Below are positions 4,558 through 64,000 of a stretch of DNA of 64,000 nt, one piece after another. The notes under the pieces are model-generated. The model was not told the origin of the DNA, did not search any database, and worked only from the letters and a program-made list of their open reading frames with translations. The translations under genes were made by a program, and so were the position numbers. Source of the DNA: Candidatus Kaiserbacteria bacterium (GTDB lineage: Bacteria > Patescibacteriota > Minisyncoccia > Phycocordibacterales > UBA2100); the NCBI GenBank assembly GCA_016186695.1, contig JACPLC010000001.1, forward strand, positions 174,706 through 238,705, given 5' to 3'. Numbering within the stretch: the first letter of the stretch is position 1; each line of letters begins with the position of its first letter.

Positions 4558-6057
4558 TTGAAACGCTATGTACGTCTTATGAGTATGAAACTTGCACGCG
4601 CTTTTGTCGTTGGTGTTTTTTTGCTTGTGCCATTTGCGGCAGAGGCAGCGATGCAGAAATCATTCGAAGTTTCGGGGTGGATTCCGTACTGGCGGGTGGC
4701 GACCGGCACTGCCGATGTGCTCCCGAATATTTCCACGCTCACGGAAGTGAACCCGTTCGTGTATACGCTCGTCGAGGATGGCGCACTTATCGATAACGGT
4801 CTCATCGACCAAGAGCCGTGGCTCTCGCTTCGGAGAGATGCGAGTAGTAAAAATATCCGCTTTATTCCGACGGTCATGACCGGCAACAGTGAACTCGTTC
4901 ACGCGCTTTTGAGCAATACGCAATCGCGCATCGCGCTTGAGGATACACTCGCAAACCTTGTGAAAGAGAGCGGGTTCGATGGCATCGATATCGACTTTGA
5001 GGGGAAAAAAGCGGAGACGAGAGACTACTACTCTACGTTTCTGAAAGGGCTCAAGATGCGCCTCAAGGATAAGTGGCTCATGTGCACCATCGAATCGCGA
5101 ACACCCATCGCCGACCGCTACTTCGGCACAACGCCGCCGCCGGACGCGACGACCTATGCAAACGACCTCAAGGCAATCGGGAAATACTGCGATCGCGTGC
5201 GCATCATGGCCTACGACCAGCAGGGTATCGACCTCAAACTCGCCGACGAGGCGGCAAAAGCCGGTCTTCTTTACGCGCCTGTCGCGGATCCGCGCTGGGT
5301 CGAAAAAGCCATACTTTTAGCCGCAAAAGACATTCCGAAGAATAAGCTCATGATCGGCGTTCCCACCTACGGCTATGAGTACGACGTCACTGCGTACGCC
5401 AACAATGAGTACGTGTACGACATCCTCTGGTCGTTCAATCCCGGTTACGCGATGCCTATCGCCGCATCTGCCGGCATCACGCCACAACGAGGGTATTGGG
5501 GAGAGATATTCTTCACCTATACGGGAGCGGGTACCTCCTCGCCGCCGCTCACAGACACGAACAACTCCGCACTCGTTGCTGCGACGAGCGCCTCGACGAT
5601 CGCGAGCACGACCAACTCAAACCTCACGTTCCGTATGATGGTCTGGCCCGACGCGGAATCCGTGCGGCAGAAAGTTGAGCTTGCGAAGCGTCTCGGCGTG
5701 CGCGGTATTTCCATCTTCAAACTCGACGGAGGACAGGATCCCGCAATTTGGAATGTGCTCGCGACGAGTGCGAAAGCGCCCGCGCGCGCTGCGCTCGCGC
5801 GGGCGCTCAAGCTCGGCTCTGTGGGCGAAGACGTGCGCACACTCCAGATGATACTGAATGCCGATGCGGCGACACAGATAGCAGCAAGCGGCACGGGTTC
5901 ACTGGGGAGTGAAACTACCCGCTTCGGCGCTCTCACCAAGCGCTCAGTACAAAAATTCCAGGAGAAGTACGGACTTTCGAAGCGCGGGGCTGCTGCCTAT
6001 GGATTCGTCGGCCCTAAAACTCGCGCGAAGCTGAACGAACTCCTGCAGACGCTCTAA
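4558..6057 (+). CDS. Secreted glycoside hydrolase family 18 (chitinase/ peptidoglycan-hydrolase-like) fused to a C-terminal peptidoglycan-binding (PG_binding_1-like) domain
   Basis: Signal peptide [30 protein letters not shown]. The GH18 catalytic signature DxxDxDxE is present as [11 protein letters not shown]. The C-terminal about 90 aa ([18 protein letters not shown]...[16 protein letters not shown]) is the same module found at the C-termini of the 2353-aa protein and of the 22685..23761 ORF. Confidence 0.75.
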
Positions 6058-13814: not shown

Positions 13815-13860
13815 ATCCTTCCTCAATACTTCATACTCTATACTTCATACTTTCTATCGT

Positions 13861-14046: not shown

Positions 14047-15968
14047 AACTGAAAGAATCCCGCGAGTAGATAGAAGACAGATGCGACGAACCGTGCGGCG
14101 GCACTTGCGTGCGGCGCATCACTCGGTGGCGGTGGAGGCGGTTGTTGGGATGTCCCTCCATCAGGCGGAGGTTGCATCATCCCTCCATCGGGTGGTGGCA
14201 TCATGCCGCCACCGTCAGGGGGTGGAACAAAGCCTCCACCTTCGGGCGGATGATATTCTCCGGGCGGGAGCATGCCGCCTTCAGGCGGCCGAAATTCTCC
14301 GGGCGGAGGCATAAATTGCTGTGACTGCTGTTGATACTGTTGTTCGTACTGTCGCTGGTACTCCTGTTTGTACTGCTCTTGATATTGCTGCTGATACTGT
14401 TGTTGAAATTCTGCGGGCTGCCCTTCGGGTGAATGGCGGAAGCTTTCGGGCGGCATCATTCCTTCGGGCTGGTATTGTTTCCCTTCGCCCGGCGGAGGTC
14501 CCCTGAAGTCCATCGGTTGCCGATTTTCCTGCATGAATTTCTGTCGCTCCTCCTCGCTCATGTTCTTAATCTTTTCCGCATCCGGTCCTCCCATGCCAGG
14601 CTCTCCACGAAATCCGTGCTGCTGAAATTTTTCGCGGCACGCTTCCGGGTTTTGCTTGCACTCTTCCATGAGTCCGGGCGGGATCTGAAAACCGCGCTGT
14701 TCCATCGCACGCTCCTGGCCCGTCGCGTGATCCGGCCCCTGGCCTTCCGGACCTCCACCAAATCCGCGCTCTTTCGCGAATGCCTGGCACTCCTCTCGGT
14801 GCGCAGGGTCATCGCAAAACGTGCGGCACTCTTCTCCCTTGCATCCGCCCGGGCCCGTCATGTTTCCCATTTCTTTCATCCGCGATGCATCTTCCTCGCT
14901 CATGAGACCGTTTTCGATTGCGAATTGCATGCAGGCTTCCTGATGCGCCTGATCGTCGCAGTAGCGGCGACACGCTTCTCCGCGGCATCCTCCCGGACCC
15001 GGCTTGTTGCCGATTTTTCGCGCCTGCGCTGCCTCCTCTTTCGACATCATCCCGTTTTCTTCCGCAAACGCGATGCACGCGTCCATGTGCTCCGGATCTT
15101 CGCAGTAGGTCTCACACGCTCTTCCGATGCACCCTCCGGGCCCCGCCTTTCCTGCAAATTTCTTCGCCCGTTCCAATTCTTCGGGCGACATGAGGCCGTT
15201 CTCTTCCGCAAACTGCAGACATTCGTTCATGTGCGCAGGATCGTCGCAATACGTCTTGCATGCCTCGCGCCGACATCCGCCCGGTCCCGGCTTGTCGCCC
15301 ATTTTCTTTGCCATCGTCGCCTCCTCCGCGCTCATGAATCCGTTCTCTACCGCGAAGTTCACGCATTCATCCATGTGCGCAGGATCGTCGCAATACGTCT
15401 TGCATGCCTCGCGCCGACATCCGCCCGGTCCCGGCTTGTCGCCCATTTTCTTTGCCATCTCCAGCTCTTCTTTCGGTATCAAATTGTGCTTTTCGGCAAA
15501 CGCGATGCACTCCTCGAAGTGCCCGTCGGCGTCGCAATAGGCGCGGCACTCCTTCTCGCTCTTGCAGCCGCCGGGACCGCCCTTCGTGCGAACTTCTTTG
15601 GCGATCGCCACCTCCTCGGGAGGAATGAGCCCGTTTTTCTCGGCGAAGGCCAGACATTCGTCAATATGTGCATCGTCATCGCAATACGCTTTGCACTGCA
15701 GCCCCACGCAGCCGCCGGGCCCTTTCGCGCTCCCGATCTTACGGGCGATTGCCGTCTCTTCCTCGCTCATCAAGCCGTTTTCTTCGGCAAAATCAATGCA
15801 TTGTTCGTGGTTTGCAGGATCTTCGCAGTACGTGTGACATGCCTCTTTCGATTCACATCCGCCCAATTCCGGGATAGGGAACGTAATGGTATCTTCTTGC
15901 GCAAATGCAACACCGGCTGCAAACAATATTCCCGCTGCAGCCGTTGCTATCAGTGTTTTTGTATTCAT
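14043..15968 (-). CDS. Secreted tandem-repeat protein: eight about 48-aa four-cysteine repeats (GPGGC-x4-C-x3-CDDxAHxxEC-x-FAxENGLMSxEE), then a Gln/Tyr-rich and Pro-rich tail ending in a C-terminal hydrophobic segment
   Basis: The ORF track gives 14043..15989 with a GTG start. Internal ATG at 15968 chosen because it gives a clean signal peptide MNTKTLIATAAAGILFAAGVAFA|QED. The repeats are very regular. Repeats 3 and 4 are identical over 33 aa, which corresponds to an exact about 140-bp DNA duplication (15241..15318 equals 15381..15458 on the + strand). The tail carries QQQYQQQYQEQYKQEYQRQYEQQYQQQ, then MPPPGEF/PPEGG repeats, then FVASVFYLLAGFFQF. No known family recognised. Confidence 0.8.
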   Translation of the reverse strand: MNTKTLIATAAAGILFAAGVAFAQEDTITFPIPELGGCESKEACHTYCEDPANHEQCIDFAEENGLMSEEETAIARKIGSAKGPGGCVGLQCKAYCDDDAHIDECLAFAEKNGLIPPEEVAIAKEVRTKGGPGGCKSEKECRAYCDADGHFEECIAFAEKHNLIPKEELEMAKKMGDKPGPGGCRREACKTYCDDPAHMDECVNFAVENGFMSAEEATMAKKMGDKPGPGGCRREACKTYCDDPAHMNECLQFAEENGLMSPEELERAKKFAGKAGPGGCIGRACETYCEDPEHMDACIAFAEENGMMSKEEAAQARKIGNKPGPGGCRGEACRRYCDDQAHQEACMQFAIENGLMSEEDASRMKEMGNMTGPGGCKGEECRTFCDDPAHREECQAFAKERGFGGGPEGQGPDHATGQERAMEQRGFQIPPGLMEECKQNPEACREKFQQHGFRGEPGMGGPDAEKIKNMSEEERQKFMQENRQPMDFRGPPPGEGKQYQPEGMMPPESFRHSPEGQPAEFQQQYQQQYQEQYKQEYQRQYEQQYQQQSQQFMPPPGEFRPPEGGMLPPGEYHPPEGGGFVPPPDGGGMMPPPDGGMMQPPPDGGTSQQPPPPPPSDAPHASAAARFVASVFYLLAGFFQF

Positions 15969-16009
15969 GTATTTGTATGTACTACGCACTACTCACTACT
16001 AACTACATA

Positions 16010-16237
16010 CTACTCAAACGGATTCGTCTTCACGCCTCCGTACGGATTCGTCTTCACGTCTTCGAGCGGATTCGTCGTCATGTCCTCGAAGGGGTTCACG
16101 GCCTGCTCCTCGGAGGCTTGTTGCGCCGTGAGCGCAGCGGCCGATTTCTCCCAGCCAATGTCGTAGCCGAAGTAAAAGCCTGCGGCGGCTCCGAGGGCAA
16201 GTCCAGCGACGATCCCGATAATGAGCTGTTGGTTCAT
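16010..16237 (-). CDS. Small single-TM protein with C-terminal NPxE/TNP(F/L/Y) mini-repeats, immediately upstream of and co-oriented with the Cys-repeat protein
   Basis: The ORF track gives 16010..16288. Start moved to Met18 (MNQQLIIGIVAGLALGAAAGFYFGY), giving a 75-aa protein of one TM helix plus NPFEDMTTNPLEDVKTNPYGGVKTNPFE. There is a 40-bp gap to the downstream gene on the same strand, which suggests a two-gene operon. Confidence 0.5.
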   Translation of the reverse strand: MNQQLIIGIVAGLALGAAAGFYFGYDIGWEKSAAALTAQQASEEQAVNPFEDMTTNPLEDVKTNPYGGVKTNPFE

Positions 16238-33114: not shown

Positions 33115-35487
33115 TCAATATCCTTTGTTTTTGATGAGTGTTTCGAGCAATTCGCGAGGATATATCGGCGAATTTTCTGAGAGGGCTTGATGGTAGAGCA
33201 CGGTCGAAGGCGTGAGACCGGGGAGGGTATTCACTTCAATAATGAGGAGTTCGCCGGTGCGGATGTGCGCGAAGGCATCGATACGCGAATATCCCTCTAT
33301 GCCGATCTCTTTGGCGAATGTTTCGACGCGCCGACGTATTTTTTCAACGATGGCCGGCTTCATAACCGAGGGTGGTGGAGGGGTCAGATTTATGCCGGTC
33401 CCGCCCTGAAACTTCTCCTCTACCGAGAGCACCTCGCCTTCGGCGATGGTTATTGAAGGGTTGAGCGCATGGATGCGGCGATCCTGTTCAATGACGCCAA
33501 TGGTTATCTCAACGAAACCCGTCTTCTTTGTGTGTTTAAGCGCGTTATTCCGCACGCGGAGGATGTCCGTTTCCACAAACGCTTCAAACAGCAAAAACTC
33601 CGGCGGCTCGGGCGGCATCTCGATGATCCCGGCCTGACCTTTAAACGTGAGCGGCGCTGCGTGCGGTGCTTTTTCACGAAGAAGTGTCAGGTATGCGCGG
33701 AGATCACTGGCCGAATACAAGTGGACGACGCCGGTGGAGCATCCGTCGCTCCGTGGCTTCACGACGAGCGAGCGCGCGGCGAGTGATTTTTTCGTCCCAT
33801 TCCAGAACTTTCCGAGACCGGTGTCGTTCATCTGAAGAAGGGTTTTTGTGGCGGCGATCGTTCCTACGGTCGCTGATACTCCCTCGATATTCGCGCGCCG
33901 GATGTGCTCGGCGGTTGCCCATTTGTCCATGCAGAGTTTCGAGGTGCGCGCTTCCGGTCCGTTGAAGCGTATGTGCCTCTGCGCAAGCTTCATCTGGAGC
34001 GTGCCATCCTCGCCTTTGCCTCCGTGAAGCGCATTGAAAAGAAATGCGCGCTCATTCAATAGCTCATCGAGCGACATCTTCTGCGGCTCAAAGAATTCGC
34101 GCGGATCTTTTTTTGCCGAGAAACCGAGATGCAGTCGCGCGCGCTCTTCGTAGAGCGCAAGTCGTTCTTTTGCCGCTTCGTAGTTCCTGCAATTTTCGGC
34201 AATCTCTTCGACCGTATGGTTCAGCGTAAGATGGTAGGGAAGTTTCCACACGGTCTCCCCGTCGGTGTCCAAAAGAAACGGGCGAGGTTCGTATAGCTTT
34301 GAGTTGCGCAGTTTGAGCCACACATTAGTGCCGCTCATTAAGGAGACCTGCCGCTCGGAAGTTCCGCCGCCGAAGAGGACCGAGACAGGTTTTCGCTTGA
34401 TGTGTTCGGCCGCAGAGTCGTTTGTCGGAAGACTTAACGAATAGCGCCTGCGGGCGCTTTCGAGAATGTAGCGTAGAGCATCGTGGTGGGTGAGACCTAC
34501 CCGAGCGCTCTGCTGGAAAAGAAAGCTGTTTTGCTCCATGCCCGAGACGATGTTGAAGTCGGAAAACCATATGTCGCCCGAGGGCAGGATCCATCCATCG
34601 AATCGCGCGAAGTCGCGCATGCCGAACAGCGCAAAGAGCTGTTCGGCATGCGCCTGAATGCGCTCGATCGAAAAATCGTCAAAGCGAGGTGGGCTGTGAT
34701 AGGTAACGTGGCGCGTCGGCAGATATTTCTTTCTGAAATCGAATATCTGGTGCTCGGTGTAGTCAGTCTCGATCTCCGTCGGCGGGAGTGCAACGGGGAT
34801 GCCGAATCGATTTTGCAGGATGATAACCGTAAATTCGCGTCCTTCGGCGAATTGCTCGATGACCACGCGCGTGTCCATTCGCTTTGAAAATATAAGGTCG
34901 GCTTTTTCTATTGCTTCTTCGGGTGTGGAAACGGAAAAAACGCCGATGGAAGAGCCGCCGCTGGCGGGTTTCACGATGGCGCGTTTGATACTGTACTTTT
35001 TGAAGAAATCGCGTGCGATCGCGAGGTGGTCCTTCGCATAAATTTTCAAAAGCGCCGATGGCATTGTAAAGAAGCCTTTTTCCTGTATGAATTGATTGCT
35101 TATGAACTTGTCGAACGCCTCTCTGCAGCTTTTTGAGCCGGAGCCAACAAAGGGGATATCGTACTTTTCAAGGAACTGCTGAATTTTGCCATCTTCGCCG
35201 TATGGCCCATGCATGACAGGAAACACAATGTCGGTCTTTTTCAGCGCACGAACGAACTGTTTTGTCGTGAGCGGAGCCGAGGCGTTCTTCAACTTGAAAT
35301 CAAAGTCAGAGGGCGTGTTGCTGTAAAGTTGCCCCGTGGAAATGTGATAGGCGTTTTTCTTTTGGTCGAGATAGAACGGCACGATTTCGATTCCGTCAGA
35401 ACTCAAATGGTCGAGGACTGAACGCGCGGAATTGAGGGATATACCCCGTTCAAGGGAAGGGCCGCCGCATATGAGTCCGATTTTCAT
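33115..35487 (-). CDS. Tandem fusion of two D-alanine--D-alanine-ligase-like ATP-grasp enzymes (790 aa)
   Basis: The first half starts MKIGLICGGPSLERGISLNSARSV and ends ...DFNIVSGME (Ddl EINTxPG). The second half starts KPVSVLFGGGTSERQVSLMSGT and ends ...LIIEVNTLPGLTPSTVLYHQAL. Both halves carry the Ddl N-terminal GG-S-E and C-terminal (E/D)xN(T/I)xPG motifs. Confidence 0.75.
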   Translation of the reverse strand: MKIGLICGGPSLERGISLNSARSVLDHLSSDGIEIVPFYLDQKKNAYHISTGQLYSNTPSDFDFKLKNASAPLTTKQFVRALKKTDIVFPVMHGPYGEDGKIQQFLEKYDIPFVGSGSKSCREAFDKFISNQFIQEKGFFTMPSALLKIYAKDHLAIARDFFKKYSIKRAIVKPASGGSSIGVFSVSTPEEAIEKADLIFSKRMDTRVVIEQFAEGREFTVIILQNRFGIPVALPPTEIETDYTEHQIFDFRKKYLPTRHVTYHSPPRFDDFSIERIQAHAEQLFALFGMRDFARFDGWILPSGDIWFSDFNIVSGMEQNSFLFQQSARVGLTHHDALRYILESARRRYSLSLPTNDSAAEHIKRKPVSVLFGGGTSERQVSLMSGTNVWLKLRNSKLYEPRPFLLDTDGETVWKLPYHLTLNHTVEEIAENCRNYEAAKERLALYEERARLHLGFSAKKDPREFFEPQKMSLDELLNERAFLFNALHGGKGEDGTLQMKLAQRHIRFNGPEARTSKLCMDKWATAEHIRRANIEGVSATVGTIAATKTLLQMNDTGLGKFWNGTKKSLAARSLVVKPRSDGCSTGVVHLYSASDLRAYLTLLREKAPHAAPLTFKGQAGIIEMPPEPPEFLLFEAFVETDILRVRNNALKHTKKTGFVEITIGVIEQDRRIHALNPSITIAEGEVLSVEEKFQGGTGINLTPPPPSVMKPAIVEKIRRRVETFAKEIGIEGYSRIDAFAHIRTGELLIIEVNTLPGLTPSTVLYHQALSENSPIYPRELLETLIKNKGY

Positions 35488-38557: not shown

Positions 38558-40419
38558 ACACTGACAATAACCGGAATTACTATCGGTCTTTTCATTGTGC
38601 GCTGGAGAAGGAAGCGGGAGACGGATTCCGCGAGGTCGTCGCGGGCGGCGTCGAGGTCGGCCGAGCGGGGGTTGCGCAGCGATGTCTCAACCGATTTGCG
38701 GATGATGAGGCGCGTCTGATCCATCAGCTCTTTGTTGTCTCGCAGATACACGAATCCGCGCGAGATGATGTCGGGCGATTTGTGCAACCGGCCGGTGCGC
38801 CTGTCGATAGTCGCGACGACGACACAAAAGCCTTCCTGTCCGAGCGCTTTCCTGTCGCGCATGAGCACGTCCGAAAGTTCGGTCACCGTGTGACCTTCGA
38901 CGACGCGCATCTCCGAAGGAGCTTTCATCGGTAGCTTCACGATCTTTTCTCCTTTTTGTATCTCGATGACAGAGCCGTTGTCGGGGATAGCGATGTTTTT
39001 CGCATTCACTCCTTGCTCTATCGCAAGGTCGGCATGTACGCGAAGCATGTAATGGTAGCCGTGAACGGGGATGAAGAATTTCGGTTTGACCTGCCGGTGG
39101 ATCCACGCGGCTTCCTCGCGGTTGCCGTGGCCGGAAGCGTGCACATCGGAAGCGTGATAGGTGATGATGTGCGCGCCCTGCCGCGAGAGATTGTCTTTCA
39201 GTTTTTGCACGGCGCGTTCGTTCCCCGGGATGACGGATGAGGAAAGGACAACGGTGTCGGTCGGCGTGAGCCGGATGTATTTGTGCGTTTTGTTGCCGAT
39301 GCGGGCGAGCGAGGCGAATTCGTCACCCTGCGCGCCTGTCGCGAGGATAATTATCTTTTCGGGGGGAAAATGTCCGAGGTCCTCGACGTTGATGACGGTC
39401 TCGTCTTTGTACTTGATGAGTCCGATCTCCCGTGCGATCTCGATGTTCGTGCGCATGCTTCTTCCGTCGATGACGACTTTCTTGCCGTACTCTTCGGCGA
39501 AATGCATGACGCGGATGAGGCGCTCGAGGTGTGAGGCGAACATCGCGACGATGAGGCGCCCAGAACTCCCGCGGATTATCCCATCGAGCGTGCGATATAC
39601 GATTGATTCCGGTATAGAGAAACCGGGCTGCCAGACATTCGTGGAGTCCATAAGGAGAAGGAGGACATTCCGCTTCTTGAAGATGGAAAATTCCTGATGT
39701 TCCTCCTCCGTCGGCTCGCCGTTCTCGTGATCGAGCTTGATGTCGCCGGTAAAGACGACGTCTCCCCACGGCGTCTCCAGTATGATGCCCATCGAATCCG
39801 GAACGGTGTGGGTCACAGAAAAGAACCGGACCGTCGCTTGCCCTAGCTTTATGGTTTCGTCGGCCTCGACTTCGCGGATATTGACCTGCGTCGACTGCGC
39901 AAATTCCTCTTGTCGCTTGCGGATCATCTTGCCGGTGAGGCGGCGTGTGTAGATCGTCGGGTTTCCGATGCGGTCGATGATGTAGGGAATGCCGCCGATA
40001 TGGTCGAGGTGGCCGTGCGAGATGAGGAGGCCGCGGATCTTGTCGCGCCGCTCTTCGAGGTAGCTCGTATTAGGGAGGATGTAATCGACGCCCGGCGTTT
40101 CCTCCTCGCGGAACTGGAAGCCGCAGTCGAGGATGAAGATGTCCCCGCCATACTCCACAGCCGTCATGTTGCGGCCGATCTCCTCGACTCCTCCGAGCGG
40201 GATGATGCGGACGGTGTCTGTTCCCGGCTCCGGTATCATGCTGCGGGCCTCGCGCGGGGCGCTCGAGCGGTGTTCGACGCGGACGCGTCCGCCGCGCCCG
40301 CCACGCGGGCGCGGCGGATACGCGCGACCGCGACCACCTCGCCCGGAGCGTCCACGTGTTGGCATGGGCTCGCGGCGGAGATGCGGCTGTGACTGGGGGT
40401 TGTTATCTGATGGATGCAT
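38554..40419 (-). CDS. rnj: Ribonuclease J with an N-terminal Arg/Gly-rich extension
   Basis: Metallo-beta-lactamase motif ISHGHLDHIGGIPYI, beta-CASP and C-terminal domains. Total length fits RNase J. The N-terminus reads PTRGRSGRGGRGRAYPPRPRGGRGGRVRV. The ORF track starts at 40497; Met 40419 used so it does not overlap the upstream gene. Confidence 0.8.
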   Translation of the reverse strand: MHPSDNNPQSQPHLRREPMPTRGRSGRGGRGRAYPPRPRGGRGGRVRVEHRSSAPREARSMIPEPGTDTVRIIPLGGVEEIGRNMTAVEYGGDIFILDCGFQFREEETPGVDYILPNTSYLEERRDKIRGLLISHGHLDHIGGIPYIIDRIGNPTIYTRRLTGKMIRKRQEEFAQSTQVNIREVEADETIKLGQATVRFFSVTHTVPDSMGIILETPWGDVVFTGDIKLDHENGEPTEEEHQEFSIFKKRNVLLLLMDSTNVWQPGFSIPESIVYRTLDGIIRGSSGRLIVAMFASHLERLIRVMHFAEEYGKKVVIDGRSMRTNIEIAREIGLIKYKDETVINVEDLGHFPPEKIIILATGAQGDEFASLARIGNKTHKYIRLTPTDTVVLSSSVIPGNERAVQKLKDNLSRQGAHIITYHASDVHASGHGNREEAAWIHRQVKPKFFIPVHGYHYMLRVHADLAIEQGVNAKNIAIPDNGSVIEIQKGEKIVKLPMKAPSEMRVVEGHTVTELSDVLMRDRKALGQEGFCVVVATIDRRTGRLHKSPDIISRGFVYLRDNKELMDQTRLIIRKSVETSLRNPRSADLDAARDDLAESVSRFLLQRTMKRPIVIPVIVSV

Positions 40420-42949: not shown

Positions 42950-42990
42950 ATCTTCTAACCACTATCCACTAAACACTACTCACTTCTCTT

Positions 42991-44646
42991 ATGGCCGGAA
43001 AAAAAGTCATATTCGATCAGGAAGTTCGCACTTCCCTCAAGCGCGGCGTCGATATCGTCGCGGGTGCGGTGAAAGTCACGCTCGGTCCCAAGGGCCGCAA
43101 TGTCGCCCTGGGGAAATCATGGGGCGGTCCTACCATCACCAACGACGGCGTTTCTATCGCCAAGGAAATATCGCTTGAAGACAAATTCGAGGACATGGGC
43201 GCGAGCATTGTAAAAGAGGTGGCGACGAAAACGAATGACAAGGCCGGCGATGGCACCACGACCGCGGTTGTGCTTACGCAAGCGATCGTGCACGAGGGCC
43301 TGAAGCGCACGGCACTTGGTGCAAACGCGATGCTCGTGCGCCGCGGCATCGAGGCGGCGGCAAAAGACGCTGTTGAAGAACTTAAGAAAATGGCAAAGCC
43401 TATCAAGGGCAAGAGCGACATACGGCAGGTTGCCATGATCGCAGCAGAATCCGAAGAGCTTGGCAAAACCATTGCGGAGGTTGTCGAGAAGGTCGGCAAG
43501 GACGGTGTTGTCACCGTAGAGGAAGGCCAGACCACCGCCATCGACTACGAATATGTGGAAGGCATGGAGTTCGACAAGGGCTACGTTTCCGCATACATGA
43601 TAACGAATCCGGAGCGCATGGAGGCTGCGATCAAGGATGCGCCGATACTCATCACTGACAAGAAGATCTCCGGTATCAAAGAGATACTTCCGCTGTTGGA
43701 AAAAATTGCACAATCGGGCGACAGAGATCTCGTCATCATCGCCGACGACGTCGAGGGCGAAGCGCTCGCGACCTTCATCGTCAACAAACTGAAAGGCGCC
43801 TTCAACGTTCTTGCGGTGAAAGCGCCGGGTTATGGCGATCGTAAGAAAGAAATGCTGCAGGATGTCGCGATCACCGTCGGCGGGGAGGTCGTCTCCGAAG
43901 ATCTCGGAACAAAGCTTGAGAATGCCGAGCTCTCCACGCTCGGGCATGCGAATCGCGTCGTTGCCACCAAGGACTCGACGGTCATCGTTGGTGGGAAGGG
44001 GAAGAAAGCCGACATCGAAGCACGCGTCATGTCTTTGCGAAAGCAGCTTGAAAACACCGACTCGAAATTCGATCGCGAGAAATTGGAAGAGCGAATCGCA
44101 AAACTTTCCGGCGGTGTGGCGGTCATCCGCGTCGGTGCTCCGACGGAAACAGAAATGAAATATCTCAAAGACAAGATAGAAGACGCGGTGAACGCGACGA
44201 AGGCAGCGATTGCCGAGGGCATCGTTCCCGGCGGAGGAGCAGCGCTTGCGAAAGTCGCCGAGAAACTTTCAAAAAAGATAAATCCCAAGGAGCACGACGA
44301 ATACACGATTGGCTACCGGATCCTTCTCACCGCGCTTTCCGCTCCGCTCTTGCAGATCGCGGAAAACGCCGGTCGGCAGGATTCCGCGGTCGTTTTGCAG
44401 GAAGTCGTGAAGAAAGGAGGCAGCTTCGGCTTCAATGCGCTCGCCGAATCCGATGAGGAGTCAATCGTCGATATGTACGAAGCGGGCATTATCGATCCGG
44501 TGAAAGTGGCGAGAAGTGGTGTCGAAAACGCCGCCTCCGCCGCTGCCGTACTTCTCACCACAGAAGCAGCCGTCGCCGAAATCCCCGAGAAAAAGAGTAT
44601 GCCCGCAGGAGGCGGAATGCCGGGAGGAATGGGTGACATGGAGTAA
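42991..44646 (+). CDS. groEL: Chaperonin GroEL
   Basis: 551 aa with canonical cpn60 motifs (GPKGRNV, DGTTTA, AVKAPGYGDRKK). C-terminal GGM-type tail (GGGMPGGMGDME). Confidence 0.95.
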   Translation: MAGKKVIFDQEVRTSLKRGVDIVAGAVKVTLGPKGRNVALGKSWGGPTITNDGVSIAKEISLEDKFEDMGASIVKEVATKTNDKAGDGTTTAVVLTQAIVHEGLKRTALGANAMLVRRGIEAAAKDAVEELKKMAKPIKGKSDIRQVAMIAAESEELGKTIAEVVEKVGKDGVVTVEEGQTTAIDYEYVEGMEFDKGYVSAYMITNPERMEAAIKDAPILITDKKISGIKEILPLLEKIAQSGDRDLVIIADDVEGEALATFIVNKLKGAFNVLAVKAPGYGDRKKEMLQDVAITVGGEVVSEDLGTKLENAELSTLGHANRVVATKDSTVIVGGKGKKADIEARVMSLRKQLENTDSKFDREKLEERIAKLSGGVAVIRVGAPTETEMKYLKDKIEDAVNATKAAIAEGIVPGGGAALAKVAEKLSKKINPKEHDEYTIGYRILLTALSAPLLQIAENAGRQDSAVVLQEVVKKGGSFGFNALAESDEESIVDMYEAGIIDPVKVARSGVENAASAAAVLLTTEAAVAEIPEKKSMPAGGGMPGGMGDME

Positions 44647-52563: not shown

Positions 52564-52599
52564 TTTTTTTGGAACCGATGTCTATGCGATATGTTCAAT

Positions 52600-52617
52600 A
52601 TGGCGATATATCGCCAT
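52600..52617. promoter_or_regulatory. Perfect 18-bp palindrome ATGGCGATATATCGCCAT (candidate operator), just downstream of the yerC-like stop
   Basis: Read directly; it is its own reverse complement. A near-identical copy is at 53041..53058. Confidence 0.5.
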
Positions 52618-52623
52618 GTCGAG

Positions 52624-53070
52624 TTAGCTAGGCTTCCGCCCTGTGCGCAACATATCGAGTCGTTTCTGATGTCTCGGGCCAGCTCTCGATGGAAGTCCTG
52701 CGGAGAGGAAGAGTTCAAGATAGTCCAGAAGAGAAAGATTCCTATTAAAGATACGGCAAAGAGGATCAAAGTGACCCGCGAGGAGTCTTCTATGAAGTCT
52801 TCGTACTGTTGACCGACTCACGTTTAGTGTTTGCTCGATGCGGTAGTACGACTCGTCCTTGTCCAGCATCAAGATAACTGCTAGCCGCTTTGCGAGCATG
52901 ATGCGCTCGGTTGACGTCAGGATTGAATATATTCGAGCCTTTCCACGAGTGGCGCTTGTGGAGAAGAGTGATCGCATGAAAGCTTCGACTATTTTTCGCT
53001 CAACACTCTGCGGAATCTTATATTTGGAAACATGGGTCATATGACGATATATCGCCATAGTACCATACAT
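52624..53070 (-). CDS. TrpR-like DNA-binding protein, YerC/YecD family
   Basis: ERIMLAKRLAVILMLDKDESYYRIEQTLNVSRSTVRRL matches the Trp-repressor-like HTH of YerC/YecD proteins. 148 aa. The N-terminus MYGTMAIYRHM is encoded by the palindrome. Confidence 0.55.
   Translation of the reverse strand: MYGTMAIYRHMTHVSKYKIPQSVERKIVEAFMRSLFSTSATRGKARIYSILTSTERIMLAKRLAVILMLDKDESYYRIEQTLNVSRSTVRRLHRRLLAGHFDPLCRIFNRNLSLLDYLELFLSAGLPSRAGPRHQKRLDMLRTGRKPS
53041..53058. promoter_or_regulatory. Near-perfect 18-bp palindrome ATGACGATATATCGCCAT (candidate operator) overlapping the yerC-like start codon
   Basis: 17 of 18 identical to 52600..52617. It overlaps the start region of the regulator gene on the minus strand. 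Confidence 0.5.
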
Positions 53071-57780: not shown

Positions 57781-57940
57781 GCAACGGGTCGCGCGTTTCC
57801 CCCAGATCGATTTCTCGAAACTCATCATCTACGAGCGCACCGACGAGACGGAGCAGGCGAAAGAGTTGGCCTGCGCGGGCGGGACGTGCGAAATAGTCTA
57901 GAACAGTAAGTAGAAAGTAGTTAGTAGTCAGTAGAAAAAG

Positions 57941-58717: not shown

Positions 58718-61012
58718 ATGCTATACTCTTTCTCGATGCAGTATTTTGCCCGCGCAGAATCAGTGGTTCGGTGGTCAGTCTTTCTTCTCTTCCTGCTCGC
58801 TCCATTTTTCTTCATCCCCGTTCCGTGGGTGAGCGTCGTGCAGGCAAAAATGCTTTTGTCGGTCGTTGTTATCACCGTCTGTTTTCTTGCATGGATCGCG
58901 ATGTCTCTCAAAGATTCTGAGATCCGGATCCCGCGAAGCTGGCTCCTCATCGCAGCGCTTTCTATTCCGCTTGCGTATCTCATCTCCGCACTTGTGTCAG
59001 GGCCTTCGTGGAGTTCGCTCATTGGTGAGGGTGGAGGGCAGGATACGGTCGTCGGGTTTGTCATTTGGTACGTGGCGCTCTTTCTTTCGGCAGTCATTCT
59101 CGGCGCACAGGCGAATAGACCGGCTCTTGCGGTTCGACTCCTCATGTTGAGCACCGCTGTCATCATCGTGGTTCAAGCAATGCGCCTTCTTCTTCCCGCG
59201 TTTACGTTTGGTGGGGTGCTATCTCTCCCCGCGACCTCTGTCGTGGGGAGTTGGCACGATCTCGGCATTTATCTTTCTCTCGCGCTTTTCCTTTCGCTTG
59301 CCCTCCTTTCCACCTCAGTATTCGAGGGCGCATGGCGCTACGTCGCACTTGCTGCTCTCGTTGGCGCCGCGGTACTCCTTGTCGTCGTCAACTATTCGGA
59401 TGTATGGCTTGCGCTCGCGGGAGTTAGTCTCTTGTACGCTCTTTTTCGCTTTCGTATGCCACCAGCCGGTGCGCGTTTCGGAGGATACAAACTTTCGCTC
59501 TTGTGGCTTCTCATCGCGCTTCTTGCGGGTGCGATGTATTTCGTAGGACCCGCGCTTCAGCGCGCGCTTCCAGCATCCCTCCAGATCACGCAAGTCGAAG
59601 TGCGGCCCTCTTGGAAAGGCACCTTCGCCATCGGTCGGGAAGTGTTTGCAGAACCGACGCAGATCCTATTTGGCTCGGGTCCCAACACCTTTCCGCGGGA
59701 GTGGGGCCGCTATAAGCCGCTTTCGGTCAACACCACGCAATTCTGGAATACCGATTTTTATTACGGGGTCGGATTTATTCCGACGTCGCTCGTGACGACC
59801 GGTATATTGGGCCTTATCGCATGGATCGCTATGTGCGGAGCTCTTCTCATACGTGTCGTTCGGCTGTTCCGCGAAAGCTCCAGCGCATCACTCCTGCGCG
59901 CCGCACTCGTCTTCTCGGCGGTATTCCTGACCGTCTACCATATTCTCTACGTTCCCGGTCCGGCGCTTTCTCTTCTCACATTCCTCCTCTTTGGTGCCGT
60001 CGTAGCCGAAGAGGTCCTCACCGGCTCGATCTCACGCTCCGTCATATCAGTCTCGTGGGATCTCTGGAAGGGGAGAGCGGCCGCGCTCGCGCTTTCTCTC
60101 GCCGGACTCGTTCTATTTTTTGGCGGTGTGCAGTCGACGCGCGCACTTGTCTCAGACGTGCTCGTGAATCGCGCGATCGTGCAATATCAATCCTCACAAG
60201 ACATCGGTAAAGCATCTCGATCAATCGCACTTTCAATTATCGTATTGCCCGGAAGTGATCGGGCGAACCGCGCCGGCGTCGAGCTCGGCATTTTGCAGCT
60301 TGCCGCTCTTGCGTCGAGCTCGGACGGCAGCTCCGGTGCACAGGCGGAGCTGCAGGGTACGTTGAATGCGACTATTCAGCACGGACTCGCAGCGGTCGCT
60401 ATAGATAGTCGTAACTATCAAAATTGGCTCACACTCGCGCGGCTCTACGGAGAACTCGCGGGTGCAGGGGTAACGGGCGCGGAAGAAGCAGCGCGCGAAG
60501 CGTACAAAGAGGCAGCGTCTGCGAGTCCCACTAATCCACTTTCGTACCTTGGTCTCGCACAGCTCGATATTGTGAAGGGAGACGATGCAAGCGCGCGCAA
60601 AAATCTCGAGACGGCAATCGGGATCAAGCCGGATCTTGCAGCTGCGCACTTCTTGCTCTCGCAGATTTTTGCGCGCGCAAATGCACTTCCCGATGCGAAA
60701 CAACACGCGGAGACAGTTGTACAGATCGCACCGCAGGATGCACTCGGCTGGTATAACCACGGCACTGTCATGTATGCGTTGCAGGACTATGAAAATGCCG
60801 TGCTCTCTTTTGAACACGCGGTCAGCATTGAGAGTAACTACGCGAATGCCCTCTTTCTTCTGGGACTCTCGTATTACCGGCTTGACCGAAGCGATGATGC
60901 ACTGAGGGTCCTACGGGCTGTCGCAGCCACGAACCCAGACGATGCTGCACTGCGCGACACAATAGAGGACATCGAGGCTGGCCGGGATCCATTCGCCCCC
61001 TCGGCGAGGTAG
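58718..61012 (+). CDS. Polytopic membrane protein with O-antigen-ligase/ Wzy-like core and C-terminal TPR repeats
   Basis: The ORF track starts at 58655, inside rnpB. Met 58718 (MLYSFSMQYF...) is used instead. There are about 10-12 TM helices with a large loop, as in the Wzy_C/O-antigen ligase family. The C-terminal 200 aa contain TPR repeats (…NYQNWLTLARLYGELAG…, …ALGWYNHGTVMYALQDYENAVLSFEHAVSIESNYANALFLLGLSYYRLDRSDDALRVL…). Confidence 0.6.
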   Translation: MLYSFSMQYFARAESVVRWSVFLLFLLAPFFFIPVPWVSVVQAKMLLSVVVITVCFLAWIAMSLKDSEIRIPRSWLLIAALSIPLAYLISALVSGPSWSSLIGEGGGQDTVVGFVIWYVALFLSAVILGAQANRPALAVRLLMLSTAVIIVVQAMRLLLPAFTFGGVLSLPATSVVGSWHDLGIYLSLALFLSLALLSTSVFEGAWRYVALAALVGAAVLLVVVNYSDVWLALAGVSLLYALFRFRMPPAGARFGGYKLSLLWLLIALLAGAMYFVGPALQRALPASLQITQVEVRPSWKGTFAIGREVFAEPTQILFGSGPNTFPREWGRYKPLSVNTTQFWNTDFYYGVGFIPTSLVTTGILGLIAWIAMCGALLIRVVRLFRESSSASLLRAALVFSAVFLTVYHILYVPGPALSLLTFLLFGAVVAEEVLTGSISRSVISVSWDLWKGRAAALALSLAGLVLFFGGVQSTRALVSDVLVNRAIVQYQSSQDIGKASRSIALSIIVLPGSDRANRAGVELGILQLAALASSSDGSSGAQAELQGTLNATIQHGLAAVAIDSRNYQNWLTLARLYGELAGAGVTGAEEAAREAYKEAASASPTNPLSYLGLAQLDIVKGDDASARKNLETAIGIKPDLAAAHFLLSQIFARANALPDAKQHAETVVQIAPQDALGWYNHGTVMYALQDYENAVLSFEHAVSIESNYANALFLLGLSYYRLDRSDDALRVLRAVAATNPDDAALRDTIEDIEAGRDPFAPSAR

Positions 61013-62713: not shown

Positions 62714-62875
62714 AGGAGGCGCTCGGGGGTATTGCATTGTTCGGGTCGCGTCGTCGCGTGCTCGCGCCGCGCTCCCGCTCGGCCTCATCGGCCTGCGCGA
62801 AGACCCTCACAACGCAATACCCCCTCGCTGGAAAAAAGCGGAACACCTCTTTATTTGCTAGGATAGTGAATCGAT

Positions 62876-64000
62876 ATGAACATCCGGAATTTTTCCATCA
62901 TTGCACATATTGATCATGGAAAGTCGACGCTTGCCGACCGGATGCTTGAGATGACAGGCACGATCGAGCCACGGCGCATGCAGGAACAGGTACTTGATAG
63001 GATGGAGTTGGAGCGCGAGCGGGGCATCACCATCAAAATGGCGCCCGTACGCATGGTATGGAAATACAAGAATCAAGAATCAAGAATCAAGAATCGTGAT
63101 TCGGCATTCGATATTCGTGATTCGTCGGATTCAGAATATATTCTGAATCTGATTGATACGCCGGGACATGTCGATTTTTCATATGAAGTTTCGCGGGCGC
63201 TCTCCGCCGTAGAAGGCGTCGTGCTTCTTGTGGATGCAACACAGGGTGTGGAGGCCCAGACGCTCTCAGTGCTTTCGGTAGCGCGTTCACTCAATCGTGT
63301 AATCGTACCGGTTGTTTCGAAAATCGATGCGCCGAACGCACGGGTAGGTGAGATCGTGAGCGAACTCTCGCTTCTTCTCGGGTGTCCGGAGGAGCATGTA
63401 TTAAAAGCTTCCGGAAAGACGGGAGAAGGCGTGCGCGATATCCTCGAAGCGATAGTCGTGCGGATCCCGGAGCCGCGATCGTCCGGACAAAAACCCCAAG
63501 CACTCGTATTCGACTTCGGCTATTCGGACCATCGGGGCGTCATTGTGTATGCACGCGTTTTCGGCGGGGCTCTGAAAAAGGGCGATACGCTCCGTCTTGT
63601 TGCGGCCGACGCATCATTTACTGCGCTTGAGGTCGGCATACTTACACCGGATGACGTGCCGTGTCCGGAACTTGCAGAAGGAGAGATCGGCTACATCGTG
63701 ACGGGTATCAAAAAACCCGGAGTCGCTTCTGTGGGCGACACCGTGACATCCGCGCGCGATAGCGCGCCGGCGCTTCCCGGCTACCGTGCACCGACTCCGG
63801 TCATCTGGGCATCGGTCTATCCGGAGTCGCAGGATGATTTGCCCGTTCTGCGGCAATCGCTCGAGCGTTTGCGTCTTTCCGATTCTTCGCTTTCGTACGA
63901 AGAGGAGAGTTCCGGCATCATGGGGAAGGGTTTCCGCTGCGGTTTCTTGGGAATGCTCCATCTCGAAATTGTTATCGAGCGGCTACGACGTGAATTCAAC
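62876..64000 (+). CDS. lepA: Elongation factor 4 (LepA), 3'-truncated by the window end; carries an 18-aa low-complexity insertion in the G domain
   Basis: MNIRNFSIIAHIDHGKSTLADR (G1), DTPGHVDFSYEVSR (G3), SKID (G4). It is not in the ORF track because no stop lies in the window. The insertion NQESRIKNRDSAFDIRDSSDSE is encoded by (caagaat)x4 plus gattcg repeats at 63067..63130. Confidence 0.9.
   Translation, partial: MNIRNFSIIAHIDHGKSTLADRMLEMTGTIEPRRMQEQVLDRMELERERGITIKMAPVRMVWKYKNQESRIKNRDSAFDIRDSSDSEYILNLIDTPGHVDFSYEVSRALSAVEGVVLLVDATQGVEAQTLSVLSVARSLNRVIVPVVSKIDAPNARVGEIVSELSLLLGCPEEHVLKASGKTGEGVRDILEAIVVRIPEPRSSGQKPQALVFDFGYSDHRGVIVYARVFGGALKKGDTLRLVAADASFTALEVGILTPDDVPCPELAEGEIGYIVTGIKKPGVASVGDTVTSARDSAPALPGYRAPTPVIWASVYPESQDDLPVLRQSLERLRLSDSSLSYEEESSGIMGKGFRCGFLGMLHLEIVIERLRREFN

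What the first reader, a model, noticed from the sequence alone, without database searches (positions are those of the whole stretch)
62876..63200. AT-rich microsatellite insertion inside the G-domain of lepA, kept in frame
Compared with canonical LepA, about 18 extra residues (NQESRIKNRDSAFDIRDSSDSE) sit between the switch regions. They are encoded by four perfect tandem caagaat heptamers (63067..63094), reiterated (g)attcg units, and a 14-bp palindrome CAGAATATATTCTG (about 63133..63146). Because 7 is not a multiple of 3, gain or loss of one heptamer would frameshift lepA. The tract is therefore a potential contingency (phase-variation) locus or a recent insertion scar in an otherwise highly conserved gene.
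Basis: seen in the sequence. Interest (0 to 1): 0.5.

Follow-up and report, generated by a model that had tools for sequence, protein, structure and literature searches.

The report
Translated hairpin insert in lepA hot spot
The heptamer repeat in this Kaiserbacteria lepA gene is real, but it is one arm of a translated hairpin-type insertion at a site that many related bacteria have filled with similar inserts, some carrying a whole in-frame nuclease gene, so it looks like selfish DNA rather than an on/off switch.

Summary
lepA (EF4) starts at 62876. A 72-nt AT-rich segment (63062-63133, net +19 aa) replaces the 5-residue turn of the beta2-beta3 hairpin between G2 and G3. It holds four perfect CAAGAAT units, four degenerate roughly complementary units, and a 22-nt perfect palindrome.

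The contingency-locus reading is not supported. The heptamer lattice is a class feature. Across 49 distinct inserted lepA alleles of Parcubacteria, all are in frame with no stop codons. Most have 7-nt periodicity, and perfect runs never exceed 4.6 units. Identical alleles keep their length across independent assemblies.

The same codon-level site is empty in the closest relatives and in 66 of 80 species sampled. Occupied alleles share an architecture of hairpins built from inverted copies of the flanking lepA codons plus central repeat arms.

In some species a complete in-frame GxxExxY (PDDEXK_3) nuclease sits between such arms. That domain is also embedded in frame in recG, gatB, rtcB, leuS, asnB and transketolase of CPR bacteria, and flank-inverted hairpins also occur at its recG and gatB junctions.

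I infer that the window's insert is an ORF-less relative or footprint of this apparently undescribed non-splicing, intein-like selfish element. The mechanism is unknown, and the link to the nuclease is inferred, not shown.

The parts
62876..64000 (+). 5' part of lepA (EF4), 375 codons; the ORF runs off the window end
   Evidence: TIGR01393 matches at E 1.8e-135. The fragment is 100% identical to the 611-aa protein P0001. An AF2 model matches EF4 structures with TMq 0.65-0.73.
63020..63061 (+). G2/switch I end (RGITIK) and beta2 strand codons (MAPVRMVW)
   Evidence: Translation, alignment to 5IMQ/4W2E, and DSSP strand 58-64 in the model.
63062..63133 (+). Variable segment K63-S86: 72 nt replacing a 15-nt turn (net +57 nt, +19 aa). 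It is AT-rich and translated.
   Evidence: The spacer is 39 aa versus 20 aa in the closest relatives P0004/P0005. GC is 0.38. The model shows low to moderate pLDDT with a short helix at 68-74.
63067..63095 (+). 5' arm: four perfect CAAGAAT heptamers (core GAATC at 63070, 63077, 63084, 63091)
   Evidence: TRF reports 4.1 copies at 100% matches. The sequence is unique in the window.
63098..63125 (+). 3' arm: four degenerate heptamers (GATTCGG, CATTCGA, TATTCGT, GATTCGT), in phase with the 5' arm and about 73% complementary to it
   Evidence: Inverted repeat I1, the second TRF array, and the fold of 4-bp helices separated by 3x3 loops. The DNA fold is weak at z = -1.7. This is the only 5-mer x3 plus reverse-complement x3 'foldback' in the window.
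63128..63149 (+). Hairpin C: a 22-nt perfect palindrome. The left half (D85-S86-E87 codons) is an inverted copy of the lepA beta3 codons (Y-I-L-N-L).
   Evidence: z = -3.8. The same junction hairpin occurs in relatives, with sequences that track the local beta3 codons.
63134..63169 (+). beta3 strand and G3/switch II motif (EYILNLIDTPGH)
   Evidence: Translation; these columns are invariant in alignment A1.

Best explanation
The segment 63062-63133 is an ORF-less hairpin ('foldback') insertion. It is translated as part of LepA. It sits at the tip of the beta2-beta3 hairpin of the G domain, a position that acts as an insertion hot spot across Kaiserbacteria and other Parcubacteria.

Shown:
- The site is empty (20-aa spacer) in the outgroups, in the closest relatives and in most species sampled.
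- When occupied, it holds in-frame inserts of +3 to +166 aa.
- These inserts share a grammar of three hairpins. Hairpin A pairs the beta2 codons with an inverted copy of themselves. Hairpin B is a central pair of complementary arms, usually about 4 heptamer units each. Hairpin C pairs an inverted copy of the beta3/G3 codons with those codons.
- The window has a degenerate B and a perfect C.
- In some species the arms enclose a complete GxxExxY PD-(D/E)XK nuclease read in frame with lepA.
- The same nuclease-plus-arms module is embedded in frame in other conserved CPR genes. At recG and gatB its junctions again carry flank-inverted hairpins.

Inferred:
- The window's insert is a non-autonomous or degenerate relative of this selfish element, or a footprint of its integration or repair process.
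- It persists because the loop tolerates extra residues, and it has no switching function.
- The nuclease-bearing forms probably spread by homing to conserved motifs. The hairpins made from both flanks point to a hairpin or fold-back step in integration.
For: Hot spot. The G2-G3 spacer is 57 nt in 66 of 80 species-level loci, longer in 13 and shorter in 1, and all 80 are in one frame. Spacers of 25-85 aa are scattered through the LepA tree. The closest relatives P0004 and P0005 are uninserted.

Architecture. RNAfold of all alleles shows the three-hairpin layout. Perfect stems at A and C are 7-16 bp in inserted alleles, against mostly 3-6 bp in uninserted ones. The stem sequences follow the local codons: GATTCAGAATA/TATTCTGAATC versus CAAGTTGAGGA/TCCTCAACTTG, and CGGATG/CATCCG versus CGAATG/CATTCG.

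Class-wide 7-nt lattice. Lag-7 identity is 0.49 in inserts against 0.21 in control lepA coding DNA, and 37 of 44 inserts have their best lag at 7 or 14. The window unit GAATCAA and the L003/L124/L052 unit GTATCAA differ at one base, each with four units, and the change is mirrored in the 3' arm (ATTC versus ATAC).

Translation. 49 of 49 distinct inserted alleles are in frame with no stops, using frame-agnostic detection. This set includes 40 loci retrieved by a DNA pattern only.

Not neutral junk. Insert cores are more alike between species than the flanking lepA DNA: 90% versus 69-76%, and 83% versus 59-61%.

Dispersed. A GTATCAA-unit foldback sharing a 14-mer with the L003 insert lies intergenic in L088. 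Other heptamer foldbacks lie intergenic in L031 and L118.

Nuclease forms. L074 and L077 carry full-length PF13366/TIGR04256 in frame. There are more lepA cases. L001 holds an internally deleted remnant of the ORF. The domain is embedded in RecG, GatB, RtcB, LeuRS, AsnB, transketolase, Wzy and GT1/GT4 proteins, all with the same arm-encoded flanking peptides. The named sources are Liptonbacteria and Paceibacterota. Flank-inverted hairpins occur at recG (both junctions) and gatB (5' junction).
Against: - No GxxExxY ORF and no second copy of the element exist in the 64-kb window.
- No heptamer-arm insert was seen with a nuclease between its arms. All nuclease-bearing alleles have ACGCAGA-type arms with a period of about 10-11 nt. 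The link therefore rests on the shared site and the shared flank-inverted hairpins.
- The window lacks hairpin A, and its hairpin B is weak (DNA z = -1.7).
- Its unit core GAATC is one substitution away from its own reverse complement GATTC. The 'two arms' can therefore equally be read as one degenerate 8-unit tandem array.
- Higher identity of insert cores may be inflated by low complexity.
- The LepA and nuclease trees are short-sequence NJ trees.
- No nuclease activity, target or mobility has been demonstrated.
- The literature search was limited to open-access text.
Confidence: 0.55

Rival explanations
1. The insert is a locally generated repair scar. Breaks or replication stalls at this site were repaired by fold-back (snap-back) synthesis that copied the flanks in inverted orientation. 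Polymerase slippage then added short tandem units. Only in-frame products in this permissive loop survive. The breaks may have been made by a trans-acting GxxExxY nuclease that recognises the conserved lepA sequence. Such scars could also act as cleavage-resistant alleles. Under this reading no mobile element ever sat in the window's lepA.
For: - Hairpins A and C are inverted copies of the species' own flank codons.
- Allele L100 has the C palindrome with no net insertion.
- Insert sequences are extremely diverse, and nested small hairpins occur.
- There is no other copy in the window.
- The window array can be read as one tandem array of a quasi-palindromic unit.
Against: - Independent scars would not be expected to share a lattice of about 4 x 7 nt per arm in 37 of 44 alleles.
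- Scars would not be expected to be more conserved between species than lepA itself.
- The same unit family occurs at an intergenic site in another genome.
Confidence: 0.25
2. The insert is selected for a function of its own. One possibility is a nucleic-acid hairpin in lepA mRNA or DNA, acting through ribosome pausing, RNase processing or protein binding to the heptamer units. The other is an adaptive surface loop that changes how LepA meets the CPR ribosome.
For: - Complementarity is kept through different sequences.
- Insert cores are more conserved than the flanks.
- The residue after VRM is hydrophobic in 22 of 30 inserted alleles against 8 of 119 uninserted ones (Fisher p = 2e-13, not corrected for phylogeny).
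- Period-7 arrays also sit directly upstream of several start codons in this genome.
Against: - The insert is absent from the closest relatives and from 66 of 80 species.
- Peptide sequence and length are not conserved.
- No Rfam family matches.
- The window's central hairpin is weak.
- The same site holds a 166-aa nuclease domain in other species, which fits tolerance rather than tuning.
Confidence: 0.1
3. The tract is a contingency (phase-variation) locus. Slippage of the CAAGAAT tract switches lepA on and off.
For: - The array is a perfect 4.1-unit tract of a unit that is not a multiple of 3, placed in the 5' part of the gene.
- Units are homogenised within each array but differ between species, which implies some slippage or conversion over evolutionary time.
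Against: - The tract is short. By my own knowledge, known switches usually carry many more units.
- 9 of 9 alleles with at least 2.9 perfect heptamers, and 49 of 49 inserted alleles overall, are in frame.
- Lengths are identical in independent assemblies that differ by SNPs.
- L003 and L124 keep 135 nt despite about 25-30% flank divergence.
- lepA is a housekeeping translation factor, not a surface or restriction-modification gene.
Confidence: 0.03

Closest known systems
Rickettsia palindromic elements (RPEs) and other intragenic MITEs
   Same: These are short palindromic DNA inserted in frame into conserved protein-coding genes. They are translated as extra surface peptides and tolerated by the host protein (review PMC10969869; the original report by Ogata et al. 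2000 is cited from my own knowledge).
   Different: RPEs are about 150-bp families present in many copies at many unrelated genes of one genome. Here there is one copy in 64 kb and one site reused across a whole clade. The arms are built of about 4 heptamer units, the junction hairpins are inverted copies of the host flanks, and sister alleles carry a nuclease ORF.
Inteins and homing-endonuclease genes (the homing cycle)
   Same: The nuclease-bearing sister alleles are in-frame insertions next to highly conserved motifs of housekeeping genes (G2/G3 of LepA, helicase motifs II/III of RecG). Their distribution is sporadic, and intact, degenerate and empty sites coexist.
   Different: There is no Hint/splicing domain. 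Pfam finds only PF13366 in the 166-aa inserts. The window's insert is 24 aa. The insert apparently stays in the mature protein. The nuclease is a PD-(D/E)XK (GxxExxY) enzyme, not LAGLIDADG or HNH.
ShiLan-type in-frame homing insertion in a phage methylase (PMC11855218)
   Same: It is a non-intein, non-intron insertion that keeps the host reading frame open, is predicted to loop out of the host protein, and behaves like a homing element.
   Different: In ShiLan the HNH nuclease is read in a different frame from the host gene. Here the nuclease is read in the host frame. The window itself has no nuclease. Repeat arms and flank-inverted hairpins are not described for ShiLan.
23S rRNA intervening sequences carrying small ORFs, and CPR rRNA insertions (PMC11270868)
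   Same: These are stem-forming arms around a small ORF, inserted into a conserved gene of the translation apparatus, with a sporadic distribution. CPR bacteria are known to be rich in such insertions.
   Different: Those sit in rRNA and are removed or tolerated at the RNA level. Their ORFs are four-helix-bundle or LAGLIDADG proteins (my own knowledge plus the abstract of PMC11270868). Here the host is a protein-coding gene and the insert must be translated.
Foldback transposons of eukaryotes; coding palindromes in Nematomorpha mitochondrial genes (PMC6649704)
   Same: Both have inverted arms made of short tandem sub-repeats, with or without a coding centre. In the Nematomorpha case the inverted repeats lie inside ORFs and both arms are translated.
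   Different: The hosts are unrelated and the scale differs (hundreds of bp there). No link to a PD-(D/E)XK nuclease or to a single reused site is known for them.
Simple-sequence contingency loci (Haemophilus, Neisseria)
   Same: Both involve a perfect tandem repeat of a unit that is not divisible by 3, placed in the 5' part of an ORF.
   Different: The tract here is short, no length polymorphism is seen in the class, all alleles are in frame, and the gene is a housekeeping gene.

Membership tests
LepA / EF4 (TIGR01393) | Translational GTPase G domain with G1-G3 motifs and an EF4-specific profile match | tested here: met
   TIGR01393 matches at E 1.8e-135 over residues 2-375. The score is below the cut-off only because the ORF is cut by the window end. 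AHIDHGKST, RGITIK and DTPGH are present.
LepA / EF4 (TIGR01393) | LepA-specific C-terminal domain (PF06421) | tested here: met
   This domain is not in the window. The identical full-length protein P0001 (611 aa) carries PF06421 and PF00679.
SSR contingency (phase-variation) locus | A long homogeneous repeat tract prone to slippage | tested here: inconclusive
   The tract has 4.1 perfect units. The class maximum is 4.6. The length threshold for switching is my own knowledge and was not tested here.
SSR contingency (phase-variation) locus | Length polymorphism between strains, including out-of-frame (OFF) alleles | tested here: not met
   For the class, 49 of 49 inserted alleles are in frame, and lengths are identical across independent assemblies. 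For this exact allele the test could not be run, because no second copy was found.
MITE / RPE-like intragenic palindromic element | Inverted-repeat (palindromic) structure | tested here: met
   The arms are 26 nt and 73% complementary, and there is a 22-nt perfect palindrome. The central hairpin is weak in this allele and clear in relatives.
MITE / RPE-like intragenic palindromic element | Multiple dispersed copies in the genome | tested here: not met
   It is the only foldback of this kind in the 64-kb window, and the unit is absent from 130 fetched loci. A sister family (GTATCAA units) does occur both in lepA and intergenically, in different genomes. The rest of the genome was not available.
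MITE / RPE-like intragenic palindromic element | In-frame, translated insertion tolerated by the host protein | tested here: met
   The reading frame is open through the insert. The rest of LepA is 83-87% identical to uninserted relatives. The loop sits at the tip of beta2-beta3 in the model. Translation itself is inferred from the frame statistics.
Intein | Hint/splicing domain with nucleophilic junction residues | tested here: not met
   The window insert is 24 aa and is followed by Glu. The 166-177-aa sister inserts match only PF13366.
GxxExxY / PDDEXK_3 nuclease element | PF13366 / TIGR04256 domain between the arms | tested here: not met
   The domain is absent from the window in all six frames. 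It is present in L074, L077 and other lepA alleles at the same site.
GxxExxY / PDDEXK_3 nuclease element | Junction hairpins made of inverted copies of the host flanks | tested here: met
   Window hairpin C lies at 63128-63149. The same feature occurs in nuclease-bearing lepA, recG and gatB alleles. Hairpin A is absent in the window.
Homing element | The nuclease cleaves the empty site and the element is copied into it | not testable with these tools
   Only indirect signs are available: a sporadic distribution, intact, degenerate and empty alleles, partial clustering of nuclease domains by host gene, and a flank residue associated with insert presence.

The most novel reading that the evidence does not exclude
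The window's insert is a non-autonomous member or footprint of a previously undescribed class of in-frame, non-splicing selfish elements of CPR bacteria. These elements consist of repeat-built inverted arms, with or without a GxxExxY PD-(D/E)XK nuclease that is translated as an internal domain of the host protein. They home to conserved motifs of housekeeping genes (lepA, recG, gatB, rtcB, leuS, asnB, tkt and others). Their integration leaves inverted copies of both target flanks, which implies a hairpin or fold-back based integration chemistry not known for inteins, introns or classical transposons.
Probability: 0.4. Interest if true: 0.85.

Novelty: new variant of a known kind. Interest (0 to 1): 0.65.

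Why it matters
If this reading holds, four things follow.

- A 'microsatellite' in a core translation factor becomes the visible tip of a widespread parasitic system of the Candidate Phyla Radiation. That system behaves like inteins (conserved-motif targets, in-frame, sporadic) but does not splice out. Host proteins such as LepA, RecG, GatB or LeuRS then carry a whole nuclease, or its hairpin remnant, as a permanent surface domain.
- It gives the uncharacterised GxxExxY/PDDEXK_3 family, listed as function 'Unknown' in PMC3424549, a testable role.
- It offers a new integration signature: inverted copies of both flanks.
- It explains mis-annotations, because chimeric housekeeping proteins are named 'GxxExxY protein' in public records.

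It also warns against reading short out-of-phase repeats in MAGs as phase-variation switches.

Tried and rejected
1. Population test of the array. A scan of JGI metagenomes for the window allele with 2-6 heptamers found nothing. The contig of the exact protein could not be retrieved. Length heterogeneity of this allele therefore remains untested.
2. Other period-7 arrays in the window (13826, 15981, 42955, 57908) were checked as possible sister in-frame inserts. They are intergenic, mostly directly upstream of start codons, and have no complementary arm. They were rejected as copies.
3. A search for further copies of the heptamer 14-mer, of GAATCAAGAATC in 130 loci, and of a GxxExxY ORF in the window found none.
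4. Rfam gave no family for the insert. The only hit is a far sub-threshold match of lepA coding sequence to AsrC.
5. An intein or intron reading was rejected. The insert is always in frame, has no stops and has no Hint domain.
6. A formal covariation count on hairpins A and C was not run. The loop centre shifts by 1 nt between alleles, so a single alignment register would misstate the pairs. Direct stem measurements were used instead.
7. The GC-rich hairpin upstream of lepA was checked as a repeated element and is single copy.
8. Literature searches for GxxExxY, PDDEXK_3, Parcubacteria lepA insertions and in-frame endonuclease insertions in Patescibacteria found no description of this system.
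9. An assembly artefact was rejected. The same architecture appears in dozens of independent assemblies.

Full report
**1. What is in the sequence**

The region holds the start of lepA (elongation factor 4). The ATG is at 62876 and the ORF runs to the window end. It matches TIGR01393 at E 1.8e-135. It is identical to a 611-aa 'elongation factor 4 [Candidatus Kaiserbacteria bacterium]' on record. murJ lies upstream.

TRF reports CAAGAAT x4.1 with 100% matches at 63067-63095. A second period-7 array follows at 63094-63125, with 76% matches.

Read on one lattice, there are eight in-phase heptamers from 63070. The first four have the core GAATC and the next four have NATTC. The two halves are 73% complementary.

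The segment ends in a 22-nt perfect palindrome, GATTCAGAATATATTCTGAATC, at 63128-63149. Its right half is the lepA codons for Y-I-L-N-L.

GC falls to 0.38 here, against 0.55-0.62 around it. The heptamer 14-mer is unique in the window.

Against Thermus EF4 there is an 18-residue gap exactly between beta2 and beta3. An AlphaFold model places K63-S86 at the tip of the beta2 (58-64) / beta3 (86-92) hairpin, with low to moderate confidence. The model matches solved EF4 structures.

**2. The site is a hot spot**

Among the 120 closest LepA proteins, the spacer between GITIK and DTPGH is 20 aa in most. In about 45 it is 22-85 aa.

In 80 species-level genomes the spacer is 57 nt in 66, longer in 13 (63-555 nt) and shorter in one. 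All 80 are in one frame.

The window's nearest relatives (P0004, P0005, 83-85% identical) are uninserted. Inserted alleles are scattered over an NJ tree of LepA.

A DNA-only scan of metagenomes for the junction palindrome returned 40 loci. Every one is lepA of diverse Parcubacteria, with an in-frame insert or an in-frame replacement of the turn.

With frame-agnostic detection, 49 of 49 distinct inserted alleles are in frame and free of stop codons. This shows the inserts are translated.

**3. Shared architecture**

Folding every allele shows three hairpins.
- Hairpin A pairs the beta2 codons (A-P-V-R-M) with an inverted copy of themselves at the start of the insert. This is why many inserts begin with 'HP', 'HS' or 'HPNRR'.
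- Hairpin B is a central pair of complementary arms.
- Hairpin C pairs an inverted copy of the beta3/G3 codons with those codons.

Perfect stems at A and C are 7-16 bp in inserted alleles, against mostly 3-6 bp in uninserted ones. The stems differ in sequence in step with the local codons. What is conserved is therefore nucleotide complementarity, not the peptide.

The window lacks A. Its B is weak (DNA z = -1.7) and its C is strong (z = -3.8).

**4. The heptamer lattice is a class feature**

Over 44 distinct inserts, identity at lag 7 is 0.49, against 0.21 in control lepA DNA. In 37 of them the best lag is 7 or 14.

The units differ between lineages: GAATCAA here, and GTATCAA, CGAAATC, CAAGCTC, CAAAATC, AATGCCA and GAGATTA elsewhere. 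There are about four units per arm, and the 3' arm follows the change.

Perfect runs never exceed 4.6 units.

Alleles found in independent assemblies that differ by SNPs have identical inserts.

L003 and L124 have lepA flanks only 69-76% identical. They keep a 135-nt insert whose 93-nt core is 90% identical. These facts argue against a hypermutable switch and against neutral junk.

**5. Nuclease-bearing sister alleles**

In L074 and L077 the same site holds 531 and 555 nt, with no stop codon. Each contains a complete PF13366/TIGR04256 (GxxExxY, PD-(D/E)XK) domain with its motifs intact. The domain is flanked by arms made of repeated ACGCAGA / TCTGCGT and by hairpins A and C.
- L001 holds an internally deleted remnant of the ORF.
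- L078, L088 and P0061 hold the arms only.
- Further lepA::GxxExxY proteins exist in metagenomes.

A full HMMER scan with a free-standing relative (P0125) found 11,280 family members. Many of the best hits are embedded inside long proteins.

Pfam identifies the hosts as LepA, RecG (six cases, between helicase motifs II and III), GatB, RtcB, LeuRS, asparagine synthase, transketolase, Wzy and glycosyltransferases. All of them carry the same arm-encoded flanking peptides. The named sources are Liptonbacteria and Paceibacterota.

The recG allele has flank-inverted hairpins at both junctions. The gatB allele has one at the 5' junction.

Free-standing copies sit in conserved spacers such as nusG-rplK, and they too are flanked by inverted arrays of a short motif.

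Nuclease domains partly cluster by host gene.

**6. Interpretation**

Shown:
- an insertion hot spot;
- a shared hairpin grammar;
- translation of the inserts;
- a nuclease-bearing form at the same site and in other conserved genes.

Inferred:
- The window's 72-nt segment is an ORF-less relative or footprint of this selfish system.
- It is tolerated in a permissive loop. By my own knowledge, the same turn also varies in length among EF-G proteins.

The link rests on the shared site and on hairpin C. No heptamer-arm insert was seen with a nuclease, and the window has neither a nuclease gene nor a second copy.

Heptamer foldbacks do occur at intergenic sites in other genomes. One of them belongs to the L003 unit family. 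This favours a dispersed element over a purely local scar.

The main rival is that the inserts are fold-back repair scars, possibly made after cleavage by such a nuclease. I could not exclude this.

**7. Known comparators and novelty**

The nearest known kinds are listed here.
- In-frame palindromic MITEs such as Rickettsia RPEs (PMC10969869).
- Inteins and homing endonucleases.
- The ShiLan in-frame homing insertion (PMC11855218).
- rRNA intervening sequences, including those of CPR bacteria (PMC11270868).
- Coding palindromes in Nematomorpha mitochondria (PMC6649704).

None of these combines a single reused site, heptamer-built arms, flank-inverted junction hairpins and an in-frame PD-(D/E)XK nuclease.

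PDDEXK_3 is listed with unknown function (PMC3424549). Searches found no description of this system. That is absence of evidence within an open-access library only.

**8. Verdict**

- 'Insertion kept in frame' is supported.
- 'Contingency locus' is not supported.

The feature itself is a new variant of the in-frame palindromic insert. The system it points to may be new.

Noticed in passing
window 62725-62824: A long GC-rich hairpin (16-23-nt terminal inverted repeat, GGGGGTATTGCATTGT...ACAACGCAATACCCCC) fills the murJ-lepA spacer. The DNA fold gives z = -5.8. It is single copy in the window and in 130 loci. In other genomes the same spacer holds heptamer foldbacks (L088, L031) or a free-standing GxxExxY gene (L122).
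   Followed up: partly
window 13826-13852, 42955-42984, 15981-16016 (minus strand), 57908-57937: Four further period-7 arrays of about 4-5 units (ATACTTC, CTAACCA, GAGTAGT, AAGTAGA) are present. Three lie directly upstream of start codons, including groEL at 42991, with no obvious Shine-Dalgarno run. One lies between a stop codon and a terminator. Heptamer periodicity seems to be a genome-wide habit of unknown meaning.
   Followed up: partly
window 34615-34653, 40288-40318, 5775-5807, 60591-60678: Perfect 12-16-bp hairpins or inverted repeats lie inside ORFs: the Ddl-Ddl fusion, RNase J, a GH18 protein and a TPR/O-antigen-ligase-like protein. The window has six perfect hairpins of at least 10 bp, against about one expected from shuffles.
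   Followed up: partly
relatives: P0143-P0184; loci L131 (recG), L132 (gatB), L133 (rtcB): A complete GxxExxY/PDDEXK_3 nuclease domain is embedded in frame in many CPR housekeeping proteins (RecG, GatB, RtcB, LeuRS, AsnB, transketolase, Wzy, glycosyltransferases). Several public records name these chimeras simply 'GxxExxY protein'.
   Followed up: partly
L122 1301-1795: A free-standing, more distant GxxExxY gene sits between murJ and lepA. It is flanked by direct repeats of about 40 nt (GCAAATGATACGAATACT...), not inverted ones. It is in the same locus as a heptamer-type lepA insert.
   Followed up: no
window 33115-35487 (minus strand): A 790-aa ORF has two successive D-Ala-D-Ala ligase modules, apparently a tandem Ddl fusion.
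   Followed up: no
window 15189-15539: A 144-nt tandem repeat (1.9-2.4 copies, 79-92% matches) lies inside long overlapping ORFs on both strands.
   Followed up: no
window 52595-52622 and 53035-53064: Two similar AT-centred palindromes (…GGCGATATATATCGCC…-like) lie 440 nt apart. They may be paired operator sites.
   Followed up: no
window 63070-63149: The insert is unusually rich in GANTC (GAATC/GATTC, nine sites in about 80 nt). This is the recognition sequence of CcrM/HinfI-type methyltransferases. Relatives with other unit sequences lack this, so it is probably coincidental.
   Followed up: no
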